From positions 94,793-158,792 of the forward strand of contig DAOTUU010000054.1 of assembly GCA_034436555.1 (NCBI GenBank): DNA of 64,000 nt, given 5' to 3'. Below, one piece after another: positions 1,179-6,889 of the stretch. The notes under the pieces are model-generated. The model was not told the origin of the DNA, did not search any database, and saw only the letters and a list, made by a program, of their open reading frames with translations. Position 1 is the first letter of the stretch, and every line of letters begins with the position of its first letter. Position numbers and translations under genes: made by a program. Source of the stretch: Chloroflexota bacterium. GTDB taxonomy: Bacteria; Chloroflexota; Limnocylindria; Limnocylindrales; CSP1-4.

Positions 1179-1607
1179 CTACTTGTTGGCTTCGTAGTAC
1201 TCGAGCGCGGCCTTCACGGCCGACGCCGGGATCCGCTCGTTGGCGAGCAGGATGCCGTCCGCGTTCATGACCGCCTCGGCGAAGCGGGCCGACCAGACGT
1301 TCTCCCACACGATGAGGCCCGCGGTCGTCTGGAGCGGCAGCTCCGCGGCGATGTCCTCGATGTCATCGGTGTTGAACAGGCCGTCAACCTCGTACGGCAG
1401 GCCGTCGAAGATGGACCGCTCCTCGTGCGACAGGGAGCTCAGCTCCACCGCCTCCACGTTGCCGTCGCCGTCCTTCTTGACGACGACGAGGTCAAGGATC
1501 CGGACCAGGCCGCGGTCGACCAGGTCCTTGATGGCGGGGATGATCTCCCCCTTGAAGTTGTTGCCCGGGAACGCGATGACCGCGTATTCCACGGATCCGA
1601 CCGCCAT
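1179..1607 (-). CDS. Small acidic conserved hypothetical protein (142 aa, MAVGSVEYAVIAFPGNNFKGE...)
   Basis: I chose the internal ATG because a GGAGG Shine-Dalgarno sequence precedes it. The longer 309-aa form has an Arg/Pro-rich junk N-terminus. Confidence 0.65.
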   Translation of the reverse strand: MAVGSVEYAVIAFPGNNFKGEIIPAIKDLVDRGLVRILDLVVVKKDGDGNVEAVELSSLSHEERSIFDGLPYEVDGLFNTDDIEDIAAELPLQTTAGLIVWENVWSARFAEAVMNADGILLANERIPASAVKAALEYYEANK

Positions 1608-1741
1608 GCGCGTGATTCCTCCTGGGTGTGTGCTGGGTGGGTTGATGGCACGGGCCACCGGGCCGCCGACAGGGGGCGGGCGGCGTCGTCGATGCGAACG
1701 ATAGCCGATGATGGCCGAGGGGCCCGGCGGGCCCGCGGAGG

Positions 1742-2227
1742 TCAGCTCTCGTCGCCCAGCTGGGCCTTCAGCTGCTGCTCGAGGTCCGGGTTCACCGTGG
1801 TCAGATAGACCTTGCCCTGGTAGTTGCCGAACAGGCTGCTGAGCGCTGACGCTGAACCGCTCACGAGGATGAACAGCGCGGACGACCCGGGTGTCAGGTC
1901 CGCGGTCACGTCCTTGACCAGCTGCTTGTCCACGCTGTGACCCAGGCTCTTGCCGATGAGTCCGCCCGCGATGGCCCCGATGGCGAGGCCGATGACCGGG
2001 AAGAACACGAGGCCGATGAGCAACCCCAGGAAGCCGCCGCCGACGGCGCCCGCCTTGGTGGTCTTGTCCACATCGCCGACGTGATGGATCTTGCCGTCCG
2101 CGTCGCACTCGACCATCTCGAGGTCATCCAGCGCGATGCCGCCGTCGCGCTGGAGCTGCCGCACGTCCGCCATGGCGCGACGCGCGTCCTCCGTGTTCCT
2201 GAAGGTCACCACGATCAGATCTGCCAT
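1742..2227 (-). CDS. DUF1269-family membrane protein (second paralogue; MADLIVVTFRNTEDARRAM...)
   Basis: A family-typical N-terminal domain is followed by a Gly-zipper transmembrane region. A GGAGG precedes the chosen ATG, and the 225-aa upstream extension looks non-genic. Confidence 0.75.
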   Translation of the reverse strand: MADLIVVTFRNTEDARRAMADVRQLQRDGGIALDDLEMVECDADGKIHHVGDVDKTTKAGAVGGGFLGLLIGLVFFPVIGLAIGAIAGGLIGKSLGHSVDKQLVKDVTADLTPGSSALFILVSGSASALSSLFGNYQGKVYLTTVNPDLEQQLKAQLGDES

Positions 2228-3275: not shown

Positions 3276-4154
3276 TCAGGCCGCCGGCGCCTCGACGAGC
3301 TCGTCCGCGAGATCCGGGAAGAACCACGCGAACGCATCGAGGATGCCCGTCTCGCCGGACGGCGGCACCACGATGTCCGAGCTGGCCCGGATGTCGTCGG
3401 AGGCATCGCCCATGGCGGCGGACCAGCCGGCGGTCGCCAGGAGCTCTCGGTCGTTGGATCCGTCGCCCACCGCGGCGACCTCTGCGATGGGGATGCCCAG
3501 GTGGTCGGCATACCAGGTCAGCGCCGATCCCTTGTGGACCCCGGGGGCCACGAACTCGAGGCCCGCTCCGTCGCTCCAGACCACCGACGTGAGGCCGTCC
3601 GCCCATGCGAGCGCGGCGTCCCGGACCCGTCCGAAGACACCCGGGTCGAGCGGCAGGAACACCCGCATCGCCCCCTCGCCGGCGAGCGCGCGCAGGTCGG
3701 GGATGCGACGCAGCGCGGGACCATCCTCCGGCGCGTAGCCGTACGCGTGCCACGTCACGCCGTGCCCTGCGCGATGTCCGTCCAGCAGCGACACGATGGG
3801 GTCGACCGCATGCGCCTCGGCGAACTGGAGCGCGTGGAGGTAGCCCGCCGCGGACAGCGAGGTGCGTCGCAGCACGGTGCCGCTCACGGGGTCGGAGATG
3901 AGCGCGCCCTGCATCGTGATCTGGTGCCCGCTCAGGCCCAGCTCGGCCGCGATGTCGGCGACGTTCGTCCAGGGCGAGCGGCCGGTGCACAGGATGACCT
4001 GCGCACCCGAGCGGCGGACGGCCGCCACGGCCCGGACGACCGCGGGGCGGAGCACGCCCAGGTGATCCAGGAGCGTGCCGTCGATGTCGCACGCGACCAG
4101 ACGTGGACGGGGACGGAAGCTGGTCTCGGCCGTGCGCCGGGCGACGCGATCCAT
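3276..4154 (-). CDS. HAD-superfamily hydrolase, Cof-type (HAD-IIB)
   Basis: It has the DIDGTLL motif I and a C-terminal GDGSND motif. The start is set at MDRVARR because the upstream extension is junk. Confidence 0.8.
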   Translation of the reverse strand: MDRVARRTAETSFRPRPRLVACDIDGTLLDHLGVLRPAVVRAVAAVRRSGAQVILCTGRSPWTNVADIAAELGLSGHQITMQGALISDPVSGTVLRRTSLSAAGYLHALQFAEAHAVDPIVSLLDGHRAGHGVTWHAYGYAPEDGPALRRIPDLRALAGEGAMRVFLPLDPGVFGRVRDAALAWADGLTSVVWSDGAGLEFVAPGVHKGSALTWYADHLGIPIAEVAAVGDGSNDRELLATAGWSAAMGDASDDIRASSDIVVPPSGETGILDAFAWFFPDLADELVEAPAA

Positions 4155-4325
4155 GGGGTCTGGGGAGTCCTCCGAGCCTGCGGGTGGAAGCGCGATTGTC
4201 GCCCAGCCAGGTCGAACATGCCCTGACCGACTGCAACCCTTCGACCCGACGGTGCCTCTGGGATGGTGAGACGTGACCCCCGATCCGCCACCCGGCGGAG
4301 CGCGTCGACAGCAAGGAGCCATCCG

Positions 4326-4892
4326 ATGACCCACCTGCGATCACCCCTCGGCATCCGCGCTCGGCGCGTCGGCCTGCTGGCCGTGGCCACGGCGTACGCC
4401 GCGCTCGGGCCGGGCGCCGCGGTCGTCGCGGCCGGCAGCCAGCAGCCCGTGATGCACCGTGAGATCGCGCTGAAGCGCCTGGATGCGGACGATGCGGATG
4501 TCCTCATCGTCAGCGACGACGACGATGATGACGACGACGCCACCACGACCGCCTTCGGGGCCACGGCCACCCGAAACCTCGACGGCGACGCCACGCGCGG
4601 CAACGACGGCACGAACGGCGCCGCCACCCGGACGAGCAACGCGGACGGCGACGCCACGCGCGGCAACGACGGCACGGGCTCGGGCGACGGCGGCACGCGC
4701 ACCTCGAACGCGGACGGCGACACCACGCGCGGTAACGACGGCACGAACGGCGCCGCCACCCGGACGAGCAACGCGGACCACGACGACACCCGCGGCAACG
4801 ACCGGACGGGGGACGGCGACGACACGAAGGGCGAGGACGGCACCGACGGCGGTGACAACACCGGCCCCGGCGCCACCTCCTTGGACGACTGA
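4326..4892 (+). CDS. Secreted acidic tandem-repeat protein (signal peptide, an Asp8 run, four 21-aa repeats ATRGNDGTNGAATRTSNADGD)
   Basis: AAGGAG lies 8 nt upstream. There is a signal peptide MTHLRSPLGIRARRVGLLAVATAYAALGPGAAVVAAG, high GC3, and Ca-binding-like DxDxDG repeats encoded by 63-bp tandem DNA repeats. Confidence 0.6.
   Translation: MTHLRSPLGIRARRVGLLAVATAYAALGPGAAVVAAGSQQPVMHREIALKRLDADDADVLIVSDDDDDDDDATTTAFGATATRNLDGDATRGNDGTNGAATRTSNADGDATRGNDGTGSGDGGTRTSNADGDTTRGNDGTNGAATRTSNADHDDTRGNDRTGDGDDTKGEDGTDGGDNTGPGATSLDD
4590..4850 (+). repeat. 63-bp tandem DNA repeat (about 4 copies) inside the repeat-protein gene
   Basis: The unit cgacgccacgcgcggcaacgacggcacgaacggcgccgccacccggacgagcaacgcggacggcga recurs. 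Confidence 0.7.
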
Positions 4893-5056
4893 CCGGCACC
4901 AGCACGGACCCGTGGTCGTTCGGACCGCGGGATTGACCGATCAGGACCCACGGGCGCGCACTCCCTGACCGCGCCCGCGGGTCCTGTCCGCGTGGTCACG
5001 CCGGCCACCGGCCCCCCATCTCCTCCACCCTCCCGGCCCAGCTATCGTGAGGTCTC

Positions 5057-5944
5057 ATGACGACCACCTCCGCCCGCGCCGCATCCTGGGGCTTCGCTCC
5101 CGGCACCGACCTGGGCGAGGGCCGGGCGGCGGTGCGCCTGCTGGGTGGCGGTGACCGATACGAGGCATGGCTGGGATGGGACGACCATCTGTGCTCCCCG
5201 GTGGTGCTCAAGATCGTCCGTCCGGACCAGGTGGACGATCCGCGCGCGAGGTCCGCCGCAGGGCGCGAGGCGGCCGTCCTCCGGGGCCTGGCACACCCCG
5301 GGATCGTGCGCTGCTTCGGCGCCGATCTCGACGGCCCCCGGCCGTACCTGGTGCTCGAGTTCCTGGACGGACCGCGCCTGTCCACGCTGCTGCGCCGCTA
5401 CGGGCCGCTGACGCACGAACAGCTCGTGCCGCTCGCGACGGAGCTCGGGTCGGCGCTGGCGTACCTCCACCACGAGGGCCTGGTCCACCTGGACGTGAAG
5501 CCGCAGAACCTGATCATGGGCGCGCCGCCCAGGCTCATCGACCTGTCCATCGCCCGCCCCATCAGCGAGTCGGACCGGCTCACCGGACCGCTGGGCACGG
5601 AGGCATACATGGCCCCGGAGCAGTGCGACGTCGGGCTCCTGCCCACCATCGGGCCGGCGACCGATGTCTGGGGCCTCGGCGCGACGCTGTACGAGGCGGC
5701 CAACGGCCACCGCCCGTTCCCTCGGCGCGACGGGCCCGGTGCGCCCTACCCGCAGCTCTCCTGTGCGCCGGCGCCGTTCCATCCCAGGGTGCCCGCGGTG
5801 TTGCGAGCGGCGATCGCGGCCTGCCTCGCGACCGACCCGCGCGATCGGCCCACTCTCGGGGAGCTCATGGATGCCGTGGAGGCGCTCCAGGCGGATGCCC
5901 GGGACGTCGCCCTGAGCCGCTTGCGGCGGCGCGTCCGCTGGTGA
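5057..5944 (+). CDS. Serine/threonine protein kinase (kinase domain only, about 295 aa)
   Basis: It has the catalytic loop HLDVKPQN, an APE motif (YMAPEQ), and VLKIV around the VAIK lysine. Confidence 0.85.
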   Translation: MTTTSARAASWGFAPGTDLGEGRAAVRLLGGGDRYEAWLGWDDHLCSPVVLKIVRPDQVDDPRARSAAGREAAVLRGLAHPGIVRCFGADLDGPRPYLVLEFLDGPRLSTLLRRYGPLTHEQLVPLATELGSALAYLHHEGLVHLDVKPQNLIMGAPPRLIDLSIARPISESDRLTGPLGTEAYMAPEQCDVGLLPTIGPATDVWGLGATLYEAANGHRPFPRRDGPGAPYPQLSCAPAPFHPRVPAVLRAAIAACLATDPRDRPTLGELMDAVEALQADARDVALSRLRRRVRW

Positions 5945-6007
5945 GCGCCGAGACGGGCGGCCTCCCGGCTCGGCCCCGCGCTCCGCGCCCCGCCCGCGCC
6001 GCTCGCG

Positions 6008-6889
6008 ATGGGTACGCTTCACGCCATGTCGACCACCGACCTGCTCGCCGCGTGTTGGACCTCCGCCGGGGCCTGCGACGCCCGTCCCGACACGCCCGAC
6101 GACCGCTCGCCGCTCCCCATCCGGCGGCGCGTGGAGGCGGTCGCCGCAGCCGGGTTCACCGGGTTCGGCATCCGTCACGGGGACCTGCTGCGGGTGGAGG
6201 CGGATCCGGGCTTCCCCGCGTTCCGGCGGATGCTCGACGACCACGGACTGCGCATCCTGGAGCTCGAGTTCCTGGAGGGCTGGTTCCTGCCCCCGGGTGA
6301 GCCACGCGCCGCGTCCGATCGAGCCCGGGCCGATCTCCTGCGGGCGGCGGAATCCCTGGGCGCTCGACACATCAAGGTCGGCGCCGACTTCGCAGGCGGC
6401 CCCTTCGAGGCCGAGCGGATGGCGCCGCACCTCGCGGAGCTGGCGCGGCAGGCGGCCGATGCAGGGACGCGGATCGCCTTGGAGCCGATGCCGTTCACGG
6501 ACGTGCGCACGCCCTTCCAGGGTCTGGAGCTGGTGGACCTGGTCGATCACCCGGCAGCCGGGCTGTGCCTCGACATCTGGCATGTCGAGCGGGCCGGGGT
6601 GCGGGTCGCGGCCGTCGCGAGCATCCCGGGACACCGGATCGTGGCGGTGGAGCTGGACGATGCACCGCGCCAGCCGGAGCAGGCGCTGCTGCCCGACACG
6701 TTCGCGGGTCGGCGGTTCCCGGGCGAGGGCGACTTCGATGTGTCGGGGTTCGTGGCCGCCATCCGCGCCACCGGCTTCGACGGCGCGTTCGGGGTGGAGA
6801 TGCTGTCGACCGCGTTCCGTGCGCTCCCCGTGGAGGAGGCCACGCGCCACGCGTACGAGACCGCCGCGCGATTCGTCCTGGCCGACTGA
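6008..6889 (+). CDS. Sugar phosphate isomerase/epimerase (xylose-isomerase-like TIM barrel)
   Basis: The AP-endonuclease-2/TIM-barrel family pattern is present (HIKVGADFAG...LEPMPF...CLDIWH). The start may be 6026. Confidence 0.8.
   Translation: MGTLHAMSTTDLLAACWTSAGACDARPDTPDDRSPLPIRRRVEAVAAAGFTGFGIRHGDLLRVEADPGFPAFRRMLDDHGLRILELEFLEGWFLPPGEPRAASDRARADLLRAAESLGARHIKVGADFAGGPFEAERMAPHLAELARQAADAGTRIALEPMPFTDVRTPFQGLELVDLVDHPAAGLCLDIWHVERAGVRVAAVASIPGHRIVAVELDDAPRQPEQALLPDTFAGRRFPGEGDFDVSGFVAAIRATGFDGAFGVEMLSTAFRALPVEEATRHAYETAARFVLAD

What the first reader, a model, noticed from the sequence alone, without database searches (positions are those of the whole stretch)
4326..4892. A secreted Asp-rich protein built from 63-bp tandem repeats with DxDxDG calcium-binding-like motifs
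It has a signal peptide, then an uninterrupted D8 run, then about four 21-residue repeats (ATRGNDGTNGAATRTSNADGD). The spacing of Asp/Asn/Gly residues resembles thrombospondin-type-3 or EF-hand-like Ca2+ loops. The encoding DNA is a near-perfect tandem repeat and so is prone to copy-number change. The gene is divergently placed from a HAD hydrolase. It may be a variable cell-surface or cation-binding protein. All six frames are open here, so the strand choice rests on the signal peptide, the AAGGAG Shine-Dalgarno sequence and GC3.
Basis: partly seen in the sequence, partly recalled or inferred. Interest (0 to 1): 0.5.

Follow-up and report, generated by a model that had tools for sequence, protein, structure and literature searches.

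The report
Exported acidic repeat protein paired with kinase
The ORF is a real gene for a small, probably exported, disordered, very acidic Thr/Asp/Gly-repeat protein without canonical calcium loops, and across soil Chloroflexota and Actinomycetota its relatives almost always sit next to a dedicated soluble Ser/Thr kinase, an undescribed gene pair of unknown function.

Summary
The plus-strand ORF 4326..4892 is a real gene. The rival antisense frame has internal stops in three of four homologues, and gene calls on an independent assembly use the same ATG. It encodes a signal-peptide-like N-terminus, a conserved motif (EIALKRLDADD), a D8 run, and A-B-A'-C repeats of 21/23/21 aa plus a TxGxDx hexad tail. 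Only units 1 and 3 are near-identical. There is no DxDxDG, EF-hand, TSP3 or RTX motif. AlphaFold predicts a disordered repeat region in two family branches. The HAD neighbour is incidental. The conserved partner is the adjacent soluble Hanks-type kinase (5057..5944). Starting from 80 kinase-anchored metagenome loci, about 53 of 54 judgeable ones carry a small protein of the same plan beside the kinase, often with unrelated repeats. Background is about 0.02 per kb. The family has no Pfam model, annotation or literature. Best reading: an exported polyanionic disordered protein that is the kinase's dedicated partner, possibly its multi-Thr substrate, binding cations by charge density. The mechanism is inferred, not shown.

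The parts
4313..4318 (+). Shine-Dalgarno AAGGAG, 7 nt upstream of the ATG
   Evidence: Read directly. A GGAG-type SD sits in the same place in L012, L013 and L004.
4326..4892 (+). Coding sequence of the acidic repeat protein (188 aa plus TGA stop)
   Evidence: The + frame is open in all 5 genes compared. The antisense frame sharing third positions has 1-3 stops in L001, L012 and L013. There are 14 + 19 protein-level homologues. The gene caller on an independent assembly uses the same ATG and strand.
4326..4433 (+). N-terminal export signal (residues 1-36): basic n-region RARR, h-region VGLLAVATAYAAL, GPG break, small-residue c-region AVVAA|G
   Evidence: Conserved across homologues. AlphaFold models it as a helix. 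Cleavage is inferred from the -3/-1 rule, because no SignalP tool was available.
4455..4514 (+). Conserved juxta-signal motif HREIALKRLDADDADVLIVS (residues 44-63)
   Evidence: R51 and D56 are nearly invariant. Equivalent h-E/D-L-R-K-D-D motifs occur in about 70 kinase-partner proteins whose repeats are unrelated.
4515..4538 (+). Uninterrupted poly-Asp run D8 (residues 64-71)
   Evidence: An acidic run at this position is a constant of the partner proteins.
4581..4775 (+). Repeat units 1-3 (A, B, A'): DGDATRGNDGTNGAATRTSNA / DGDATRGNDGTGSGDGGTRTSNA / DGDTTRGNDGTNGAATRTSNA
   Evidence: Unit 1 vs 3 is 96.8% identical in DNA. The B+A block (44 aa) is present or absent among homologues.
4776..4889 (+). 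Degenerate unit 4 plus C-terminal T-x-G-x-D-x hexad run (DHDDTRGNDRTGDGDDTKGEDGTDGGDNT...), the most conserved part of the family
   Evidence: Invariant T147, D151, D153, T155, R156, G157, D159, T161, G164, T167, G169, T173 and G176. All 4 differences from a 99.84%-identical sequence fall at 4779-4790.
4909..4986 (+). Two GC-rich stem-loops just after the stop codon (4909-4931 and 4942-4986), without a T tract
   Evidence: MFE -82.4 kcal/mol, z = -3.2. All four repeat-gene->kinase loci have a strong hairpin of unrelated sequence in the gap after the repeat gene, with z from -1.85 (L013) to -4.77 (L004). No consensus terminator and no Rfam family.
5057..5944 (+). Partner gene: soluble 295-aa Hanks-type Ser/Thr kinase (non-RD HLD, DLS in place of DFG, basic C-terminal tail RLRRRVRW)
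   Evidence: Pfam PF00069, 2.3e-36. Catalytic motifs are >=90% conserved across 89 subfamily members. It lies next to a repeat-family gene in the window and most related loci.

Best explanation
Shown: 4326..4892 (+) is a genuine gene. Its product has a signal-peptide-like N-terminus, a short conserved motif (EIALKRLDADD...VLIV), a poly-Asp run, and a hydrophobic-poor Thr/Asp/Gly/Asn/Arg repeat tail predicted to be disordered. Mature net charge is about -23. It belongs to an unannotated family that forms a conserved module with the adjacent soluble, catalytically intact Hanks-type Ser/Thr kinase (5057..5944). Across lineages the repeat sequence changes completely. The constants are the hydrophobic N-terminus, the juxta-signal motif, the acidic run, an acidic Gly- and Ser/Thr-rich composition, and kinase adjacency. 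Inferred: the protein is exported by Sec and acts outside the membrane as a flexible polyanion, binding divalent cations or water through charge density rather than discrete DxDxDG or EF loops. It is the kinase's dedicated partner, most likely a multi-site Thr substrate phosphorylated before or during export, with the conserved N-terminal motif serving as the docking element. The 3' stem-loop after its stop would allow high expression of the repeat protein with lower read-through into the kinase. The repeat array changes by recombination between units.
For: Gene and strand: antisense frame broken in 3 of 4 homologues, + frame always open, SD conserved. Independent gene calls use the same start and strand. 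Family: 14 homologues, 19 representatives among 1.84e9 proteins, 137 in the sister branch. All are hypothetical, with no Pfam, NCBIfam or PADLOC match. Disorder: pLDDT 44. In the 50-sequence model, pLDDT is about 40 over the repeats and 87-93 for the N-terminal helix. Partner tails have a median of 5.6% hydrophobic residues, 26% Gly, 21% Asp+Glu and 18.5% Ser+Thr, vs 8.9% Ser+Thr in the neighbouring enzymes. Module: a kinase lies beside the repeat gene in the window, 8 of 11 genome or assembly loci, L012, L013 and both P0006 contigs. In the reverse test, 30 of 80 kinase-anchored loci hit the narrow HMM and 46 of 80 pass a composition rule. Of 54 judgeable loci only L045 lacks a partner. Gaps are mostly under 175 nt (a few stop-to-stop ORFs overlap the kinase end), and the partner is on the same strand in most loci. 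The background for the rule is 1 ORF in the 64-kb window and 3 in 117 kb away from kinases. Kinase: catalytic residues >=90% conserved, no signal peptide, basic tail. Invariant Thr residues at hexad spacing: T155, T161, T167, T173. Precedent for a kinase encoded beside its repeat-rich disordered substrate: CotH with CotG/CotB (PMC7821199).
Against: No experiment or structure links the two proteins; adjacency alone does not prove a substrate relationship. Topology is awkward: the kinase has no export signal, while the repeat domain is predicted to be extracytoplasmic. Phosphorylation would therefore have to precede export. A minority of partner tails have only 12-15% Ser+Thr. L001 and L005 carry family members with no kinase within 6-8 kb. 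Signal-peptide cleavage was not tested with a dedicated predictor. The long confident helix is equally compatible with an uncleaved membrane anchor. Cation binding is inferred from composition only.
Confidence: 0.4

Rival explanations
1. The protein is an exported polyanionic disordered protein (cation reservoir, hydration or matrix component) but not a kinase substrate. The kinase, often together with a neighbouring two-component system, is linked for regulation only, for example sensing the same envelope or ionic stress or controlling expression of the repeat gene.
For: The kinase lacks any export signal while the repeat tail is predicted to be outside the membrane. A sensor histidine kinase (31 loci) and an OmpR-type regulator (20 loci) recur in the neighbourhood. 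Some partner tails are not very Ser/Thr-rich.
Against: The gene pair is adjacent across phyla and in both gene orders even where the two-component system is absent, as in the window. Purely regulatory links rarely hold this tightly. Thr residues are invariant in the most conserved segment.
Confidence: 0.3
2. One reading: the repeats are discrete Ca2+-binding loops (DxDxDG, EF-hand-like or thrombospondin type 3-like) that fold into a beta-roll or solenoid on binding calcium.
For: High Asp/Asn/Gly content. The half-motif N-x-D-G-D-x-T matches positions 1-7 of the metal loops of the lanthanum-bound protein 9pi2, the top but non-significant PDB hit (E = 0.32). One kinase locus (L082) has an RTX-like GGAGDD-repeat protein beside the kinase.
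Against: Zero matches to DxDxDG, relaxed variants, EF-loop or RTX patterns. No Pfam EF-hand, TSP_3 or HemolysinCabind hit at E<=1. The repeats alone give no PDB hit at E<=10. The loop lacks Gly6, hydrophobic position 8 and Glu12, and there are no Cys. AlphaFold gives pLDDT of about 40 for the repeats even with 50 sequences and regular 18-mers. Relatives replace the repeats with unrelated low-complexity sequence, which a folded solenoid would not tolerate.
Confidence: 0.1
3. The Thr/Ser-rich extracytoplasmic disordered tail is a substrate for O-glycosylation, as in streptococcal membrane-associated Ser/Thr-rich IDRs or actinobacterial Pmt mannosylation. In that case the kinase is unrelated to its modification.
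For: Exported Ser/Thr-rich IDRs are O-glycosylated in streptococci (PMC12041528). The window tail is 24.8% Ser+Thr.
Against: No glycosyltransferase is a conserved neighbour. The conserved neighbour is a kinase. The tail is Asp/Gly-rich rather than the Pro/Ala/Thr-rich type that, from my own knowledge, is typical of mannosylated actinobacterial proteins.
Confidence: 0.1
4. The kinase is a stand-alone anti-phage defence kinase (PD-T4-6 or MADS Mad6-like) and the repeat gene is an accessory or a bystander.
For: The kinase matches the PADLOC models mad6 (3.9e-50) and PD-T4-6 (6e-42), and NCBIfam MAD6 at 95 bits.
Against: The matches cover only the generic Hanks catalytic domain and fall far below the NCBIfam cut-off (95 vs 460 bits). 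The repeat protein matches nothing in PADLOC. The window neighbourhood is housekeeping. The other conserved neighbours are a two-component system and small charged membrane proteins.
Confidence: 0.03
5. The ORF is not a gene: it is a chance open frame in GC-rich repetitive DNA, or the real gene is the minus-strand Pro/Ser-rich 358-aa frame (3932..5008).
For: Several frames are open across the repeat array, and the minus frame shares the high-GC third positions.
Against: The minus frame has 1-3 internal stops in L001, L012 and L013. It would overlap the 5' 220 nt of the Pfam-supported HAD gene on the same strand. It is not on record as a called gene. The plus frame has conserved start, SD, signal region and stop.
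Confidence: 0.01

Closest known systems
CotH kinase with CotG/CotB (Bacillus subtilis spore-coat phosphorylation module; PMC7821199)
   Same: A Ser/Thr kinase is encoded next to genes for repeat-rich, low-complexity, disordered proteins that end up in an extracytoplasmic layer. The repeats are Ser/Thr-rich and evolve quickly.
   Different: CotH is an atypical kinase fold, whereas this one is a canonical Hanks-type kinase. CotG/CotB repeats are Ser/Lys/Arg-rich and basic; these are Asp/Gly/Thr-rich and acidic. CotG/CotB are deposited on the spore from the mother cell; from my own knowledge they have no signal peptide. Phosphorylation of the protein studied here is not shown.
Secreted acidic phosphoproteins modified by a dedicated kinase (Fam20C with SIBLING/casein-type proteins; dentin phosphoprotein, PMC2803795)
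   Same: Exported, disordered, Asp- and Ser/Thr-repeat polyanions encoded by unstable repeats. Phosphorylation raises their cation-binding capacity further.
   Different: That system is eukaryotic, with the kinase inside the secretory pathway. Here the kinase is predicted to be cytoplasmic. The resemblance is an analogy only; there is no homology.
RTX / EF-hand / thrombospondin type 3 calcium-binding repeats
   Same: Asp/Asn/Gly-rich short repeats in exported proteins. The half-motif N-x-D-G-D-x-T resembles the first seven positions of an EF loop (9pi2).
   Different: None of the defining patterns is present. There is no profile match, no predicted fold, no hydrophobic core positions and no Cys.
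Receptor-type Hanks kinases (PknB-like: kinase, basic juxtamembrane region, TM helix, ectodomain)
   Same: Read together, the two genes resemble such a receptor cut in two: a kinase ending in a basic tail, followed within 4-170 nt by a hydrophobic helix plus an extracytoplasmic domain. PknB and PknA are the closest solved kinases.
   Different: No fused form appears among the 120 closest of 2,971 kinase relatives; all are 209-332 aa. In the window's clade the gene order is reversed. The partner would have almost no cytoplasmic segment to contact the kinase.

Membership tests
DxDxDG / EF-hand-type calcium loop | 12-residue loop D-x-[DNS]-x-[DNS]-G-x-[ILV]-x-x-x-[DE] (Gly at 6, hydrophobic at 8, acidic bidentate ligand at 12), usually flanked by helices | tested here: not met
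   Regex scans gave 0 matches for strict and relaxed forms. No Pfam EF-hand hit at E<=1. No helices are predicted in the repeats. Only positions 1-7 (N-x-D-G-D-x-T) resemble the loops of 9pi2, at E = 0.32.
Thrombospondin type 3 repeat | DxDxDGxxDxxDxC consensus with disulfide-forming Cys; Pfam TSP_3 profile | tested here: not met
   The protein has no Cys and no DxDxDG. No Pfam hit.
RTX beta-roll (HemolysinCabind) | Tandem nonapeptides GGxGxDxUx with an aliphatic residue at position 8 | tested here: not met
   0 GGxGxD matches. No Pfam hit. The tail has only 2.6% hydrophobic residues. AlphaFold finds no beta-roll.
Sec-type cleavable signal peptide | Basic n-region, 10-15-residue hydrophobic h-region, helix breaker, small residues at -3/-1 (AxA-like) | tested here: inconclusive
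   All features are visible and conserved: RARR, VGLLAVATAYAAL, GPG, AVVAA|G. No SignalP-type predictor was available. The confident 35-residue helix also fits an uncleaved anchor.
Unannotated kinase-partner acidic repeat family (defined here) | Small size (about 100-250 aa), hydrophobic N-terminus, juxta-signal h-[ED]-L-[RK]-[RK]-x-D-x-D-D motif, acidic run | tested here: met
   The window protein has all of these. E-values to family members range from 1e-58 to 1e-12.
Unannotated kinase-partner acidic repeat family (defined here) | GDGDxT[RN]G[ND]DGT-type repeats and a TxGxDx hexad tail | tested here: met
   4 DGDxT, 3 G[ND]DGT and 6 TxGxDx matches. Invariant columns are listed.
Unannotated kinase-partner acidic repeat family (defined here) | Immediate adjacency to a roughly 290-aa soluble Hanks kinase of the GGGxxYE / HLDVKPxN / DLS / YMAPEQC subfamily | tested here: met
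   In the window the kinase starts 165 nt downstream on the same strand. Conservation is shown.
Hanks-type (eukaryotic-like) Ser/Thr protein kinase (the neighbour gene) | Pkinase fold with Gly-rich loop, beta3 Lys, alphaC Glu, catalytic HxD...N, DFG Asp and APE | tested here: met
   PF00069 at 2.3e-36, above the cut-off. All motifs are conserved, with HLD and DLS variants. PknB and PknA are the top PDB matches, about 1e-29.
CotH-CotG/CotB-type phosphorylation module | Kinase of the CotH family | tested here: not met
   The kinase is Pkinase (PF00069), not CotH.
CotH-CotG/CotB-type phosphorylation module | The repeat protein is poly-phosphorylated by the adjacent kinase | not testable with these tools
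   This needs a kinase assay or phosphoproteomics. Only adjacency and Ser/Thr richness are shown.
Anti-phage defence kinase (PD-T4-6 / MADS Mad6) | Match above the family threshold over the full protein, and a defence-island context with the system's partner genes | tested here: not met
   NCBIfam MAD6 scores 95 bits against a cut-off of 460. PADLOC hits cover the kinase domain only. The context is housekeeping.

The most novel reading that the evidence does not exclude
A widespread bacterial counterpart of secreted phosphoprotein systems. A dedicated cytoplasmic Hanks kinase recognises the conserved N-terminal motif of a Sec-targeted disordered protein and hyper-phosphorylates its fast-evolving Thr/Ser/Asp repeats before export. 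The result is an extracellular or envelope phospho-polyanion that buffers Ca2+ or other metals, or retains water, in soil and arid-soil Chloroflexota and Actinomycetota. The logic resembles a leader peptide plus variable core, as in RiPP precursors, or CotH-CotG.
Probability: 0.25. Interest if true: 0.8.

Novelty: new variant of a known kind. Interest (0 to 1): 0.55.

Why it matters
If the pairing reflects a kinase-substrate relationship, it would be a previously unrecognised, phylogenetically broad bacterial system for making exported phospho-polyanions. It would also be a clean natural example of a Hanks kinase with a single dedicated, genetically linked partner, which is rare for this promiscuous enzyme class. 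Thousands of kinases now annotated only as "serine/threonine protein kinase", and hundreds of "hypothetical proteins", would gain a testable function. Even without phosphorylation, the finding defines a new family whose composition and N-terminal motif are conserved while its repeat sequence is not. That makes it a useful case for how selection acts on disordered extracellular proteins. It also explains why short-read assemblies break at this locus.

Tried and rejected
- **GC3 as a strand discriminator.** Rejected: the plus frame and the minus 358-aa frame share third positions.
- **Codon-position substitution counts.** Pos3 > pos1 ~ pos2 (694/480/500), so they also fail to separate the two frames. 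The stop-codon test in homologues did separate them.
- **Family libraries.** Pfam, NCBIfam and PADLOC give nothing for the repeat protein.
- **RNA and signal scans.** No Rfam family. No consensus promoter or terminator.
- **AlphaFold.** Two jobs gave no fold for the repeats.
- **PDB sequence searches.** Only a non-significant lanthanum-protein hit for the profile, and nothing for the repeats alone.
- **Split receptor kinase idea.** No fused forms among the 120 closest kinase relatives.
- **HAD, TIM-barrel and upstream membrane-protein genes as partners.** Not co-conserved.
- **Two-component system as part of the window's module.** Absent from the 64-kb window.
- **Type IV pilin-like, lipoprotein or sortase signals.** Considered by inspection and rejected: no G|F-x-x-x-E, no Cys, no LPXTG.
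- **Literature searches.** Nothing for the motif strings, for kinase plus aspartate-rich repeat proteins, or for the Ancylobacter protein.
- **Source-record look-ups.** Exact look-ups of the 188-aa, 209-aa and minus-strand 358-aa products found no record. Only fragments from a Logan assembly were found.
Full report
**Observation.** The window is 72.5% G+C. ORF 4326..4892 (+) encodes 188 aa, and AAGGAG (4313-4318) sits 7 nt before the ATG. Tandem Repeats Finder reports a 63-bp period over 4581..4802 (3.4 copies, 76% matches) and a 132-bp period (88% matches). Dissection gives four units starting at nt 4581, 4644, 4713 and 4776, in an A-B-A'-C pattern of 21, 23 and 21 aa followed by a degenerate tail. 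Unit 1 vs unit 3 is 96.8% identical in DNA; every other pair is 62-78%. The D8 run is real (residues 64-71). The title claim of DxDxDG motifs is not. Strict and relaxed DxDxDG, EF-loop and RTX patterns all give zero matches. The recurring motif is D-G-D-x-T-R-G-N-D-G-T, and the C-terminus is a run of T-x-G-x-D-x hexads.

**Strand.** GC3 (0.93) therefore cannot separate them, and only GC1 > GC2 (0.70 vs 0.59) favours plus. Substitution counts by codon position among five homologous genes were uninformative for the same reason (480/500/694). The decisive test was frame integrity. The plus frame is open in all five genes, while the antisense frame has 1, 2 and 3 internal stops in L001, L012 and L013. 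A GGAG-type Shine-Dalgarno precedes the start in four of the five genes. The minus ORF would also overlap about 220 nt of the Pfam-supported HAD gene on the same strand. In an independent assembly (Logan DRR075734) the gene caller placed both fragments of this gene on the plus strand and began at the same ATG (MTHLRSPL...). No record exists for the minus-strand product.

**Family.** There is no Pfam, NCBIfam or PADLOC match. The word-indexed search found 14 relatives of 122-220 aa, all hypothetical or unnamed. An exhaustive profile search of 1.84 billion representatives found only 19 at E<=1e-3. A sister branch with regular 18-residue GDGDxTxGNDGTSGGxNT repeats has 137 members, again all hypothetical. 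The shared plan is a short basic N-terminus, a hydrophobic segment with a GPG or small-residue end, a conserved motif (window: EIALKRLDADD; elsewhere IELRKDD-like), an acidic run, and then repeats. Repeat number differs among homologues by whole blocks: the 44-aa B+A block is absent in P0001, P0003 and P0004. The most conserved segment is the C-terminal hexad run, with invariant T155, T161, T167 and T173.

**Structure.** AlphaFold2 on the window protein (11-sequence alignment) gave mean pLDDT 44, with only an N-terminal helix. The regular-repeat member P0014, with a 50-sequence alignment, gave a confident helix at residues 3-37 (pLDDT 87-93), an intermediate juxta-signal region (66-70), and pLDDT of about 40 across all repeats. 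The family profile against all PDB sequences gave only a non-significant top hit (E = 0.32) to 9pi2, a lanthanum-bound protein. Its N-x-D-G-D-x-T-L-E...E loops share their first seven positions with the window's N-A-D-G-D-A-T, but the window lacks the hydrophobic position 8 and Glu12. The repeats alone hit nothing at E<=10. Relatives also carry entirely different low-complexity repeats (next paragraph). Taken together, this favours an intrinsically disordered tail over a calcium-stabilised solenoid.

**The conserved partner is the kinase, not the HAD hydrolase.** The HAD gene (PF08282, 1.4e-35), the TIM-barrel gene and the upstream gene have no counterparts in related loci. The 295-aa Ser/Thr kinase at 5057..5944 (PF00069, 2.3e-36) has close relatives (40-72% identity) beside the repeat gene in 8 of 11 loci. 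The same holds in L012, L013 and both P0006 contigs. I then ran the reverse test on 80 metagenome loci chosen only for encoding a relative of the kinase.

- The narrow family HMM hit 30 of them, always on the kinase's strand.
- A composition rule (hydrophobic N-terminus plus a 60-aa window with at least 20% Asp+Glu and at least 70% D/E/G/T/S/N) found a partner beside the kinase in 46. Another 26 could not be judged because the contig ended.
- Of the 8 apparent negatives, three had HMM hits, and four have a diverged partner by inspection or a relaxed rule. Only L045 lacks one.
- The rule is rarely met elsewhere: one ORF in the window's 64 kb (this gene) and three in 117 kb of locus sequence away from kinases.
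- Many partners have unrelated repeats, for example RDxSRS, GATGAT/SASRD, TDGRGATGPTGNTG and RDRDRSRGDxTRDWTRDGKGG. They still keep the hydrophobic N-terminus, the R/K-D-D motif, the acidic run and the composition. Median values are 18.5% Ser+Thr, 21% Asp+Glu, 26% Gly and 5.6% hydrophobic, against 8.9% Ser+Thr and 31% hydrophobic in the neighbouring enzymes.

**The kinase.** Across 89 subfamily members the Gly-rich loop (LLGGGxxYE), the beta3 Lys, HLDvKPxN, the DLS Asp and YMAPEQC are at least 90% conserved. It is therefore an active-type, non-RD Hanks kinase. It has no signal peptide or TM segment and ends in a short tail that is always basic. PknB and PknA are the closest solved structures. 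All 120 closest of 2,971 relatives are 209-332 aa. The attractive idea that the pair is a receptor kinase split into two genes therefore finds no fused form and stays unsupported. Source labels on relatives place the module in Chloroflexota (Limnocylindria) and Actinomycetota, including Solirubrobacteraceae and Gaiellaceae.

**Other anatomy.** The 165-nt gap between the repeat gene and the kinase folds into two GC-rich stem-loops (4909-4931 and 4942-4986; -82.4 kcal/mol, z = -3.2). All four loci with this gene order have a strong hairpin of unrelated sequence in the gap after the repeat gene's stop, with gap z-scores from -1.85 (L013) to -4.77 (L004). The one kinase-first gap tested has a much weaker best hairpin. 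This suggests partial termination or 3'-end stabilisation of the repeat-gene transcript, but no consensus terminator is present. There is no riboswitch or other Rfam element.

**Instability.** The Logan assembly of run DRR075734 breaks at the array from both sides (L095 ends at ...GNDG; L094 starts at about 4760). L094 is 99.84% identical to the window over 2,442 nt. All four differences lie within 4779-4790, where they convert DHDDT of unit 4 into the DGDAT of units 1 and 2. That fits gene conversion or unequal recombination between units. An artefact at a contig end cannot be excluded.

**Mechanism.**

- **Shown:** a real gene; a family; a predicted disordered polyanionic tail; a tight, phylum-spanning pairing with a catalytically intact soluble kinase; and fast repeat turnover with conserved composition and N-terminal motif.
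- **Inferred:** Sec export, from the n/h/c-region anatomy; no predictor was available, and an uncleaved anchor is possible.
- **Inferred:** cation or water binding by charge density, from a net charge of about -23.
- **Inferred:** a kinase-substrate or docking relationship. This rests on adjacency, invariant and enriched Thr/Ser, conservation of an N-terminal motif alongside a variable tail, and the precedent of CotH with CotG/CotB (PMC7821199).

The main difficulty is topology: a cytoplasmic kinase and an exported tail require phosphorylation before export. The chief rival is a regulatory link without phosphorylation, supported by the frequent nearby histidine kinase and OmpR-type regulator. 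The defence reading rests on PADLOC hits that cover the catalytic domain only, at 95 bits against a 460-bit NCBIfam cut-off, in a housekeeping context.

**Novelty and score.** I found no family model, annotation or paper describing this protein family or its pairing with the kinase. It works most like a kinase-plus-disordered-repeat-substrate module, but it meets none of the membership criteria of CotH systems or of any calcium-repeat family. I rate it a new variant of a known kind, with interest 0.55. The gene-pair observation is solid and broad; the function is unproven.

Noticed in passing
L011 4344-4727(-), L030 502-879(-), L044 285-707(-), L053 279-686(-), L061 1058-1693(-), L065 3573-3950(-), L072 2087-2509(-), L073 2898-3317(-): In several kinase loci a second small protein is divergently transcribed immediately upstream of the kinase. 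Its plan is a hydrophobic segment, a P-[AS]-I-E-L motif, an Arg/Glu-rich stretch, a Gly run, PAPAPAP, and a terminal poly-Asp. In these loci the kinase is flanked on both sides by small charged single-pass proteins that share an IEL(R) juxtamembrane motif. The window has no such gene.
   Followed up: partly
31 kinase-anchored loci (e.g. L092 5627-7414(-), L048, L078, L086) and 20 loci (e.g. L010 21-1106(-), L042 2568-3218(-), L002 4657-6830): A HAMP/HisKA/HATPase sensor histidine kinase and an OmpR-type response regulator recur near the Ser/Thr kinase, mostly divergent upstream. The 64-kb window has no copy.
   Followed up: partly
L082 1056-1688(-): Here the protein beside the kinase is a signal-peptide protein with true RTX-like GGAGDD nonapeptide repeats (GGAGDDVMNGGRGDDALRGGAGDDRLSGGAGDD) instead of the GDGDxT type. 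This is a possible hint that calcium is relevant to the module.
   Followed up: no
window 4610-4760; L094 and L095 (Logan DRR075734): An independent short-read assembly of a 99.84%-identical sequence breaks at the repeat array from both sides. The only four differences in 2,442 nt cluster at 4779-4790 and make unit 4 resemble units 1 and 2.
   Followed up: yes
L003 about 6250-6370 and 2370-2470: The reference-genome copy of the closest Chloroflexota MAG locus contains runs of N (masked or unresolved) inside the repeat gene, which splits its ORF. This is another sign that the array is hard to assemble.
   Followed up: no
L033 3311-3988(+): Directly after the kinase partner gene lies another membrane-anchored protein. 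It ends in PPPPPPPP followed by a long poly-Asp/Ser/Gly tail (DDDDDDDDGDDDSDDGDDDSDDGSDDDD).
   Followed up: no
window 1179-2108(-); L095 2384-4335: Beyond the HAD gene lies a cluster of small DUF6325 and DUF1269 proteins of unknown function. It is not conserved with the module.
   Followed up: no
L001 8001-8558 and L005 about 5689-6276: Two family members have no kinase within 6-8 kb. L001 instead has an alpha/beta hydrolase upstream, and an 86-aa ORF plus a LuxR-type response regulator downstream. The pairing is therefore strong but not obligatory.
   Followed up: partly
L008 1608-2471 and 4802-5650; L070 3519-3953 plus a second partner-type ORF listed: Some loci carry two kinase paralogues or two tandem acidic partner genes, indicating local duplication of the module.
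   Followed up: no
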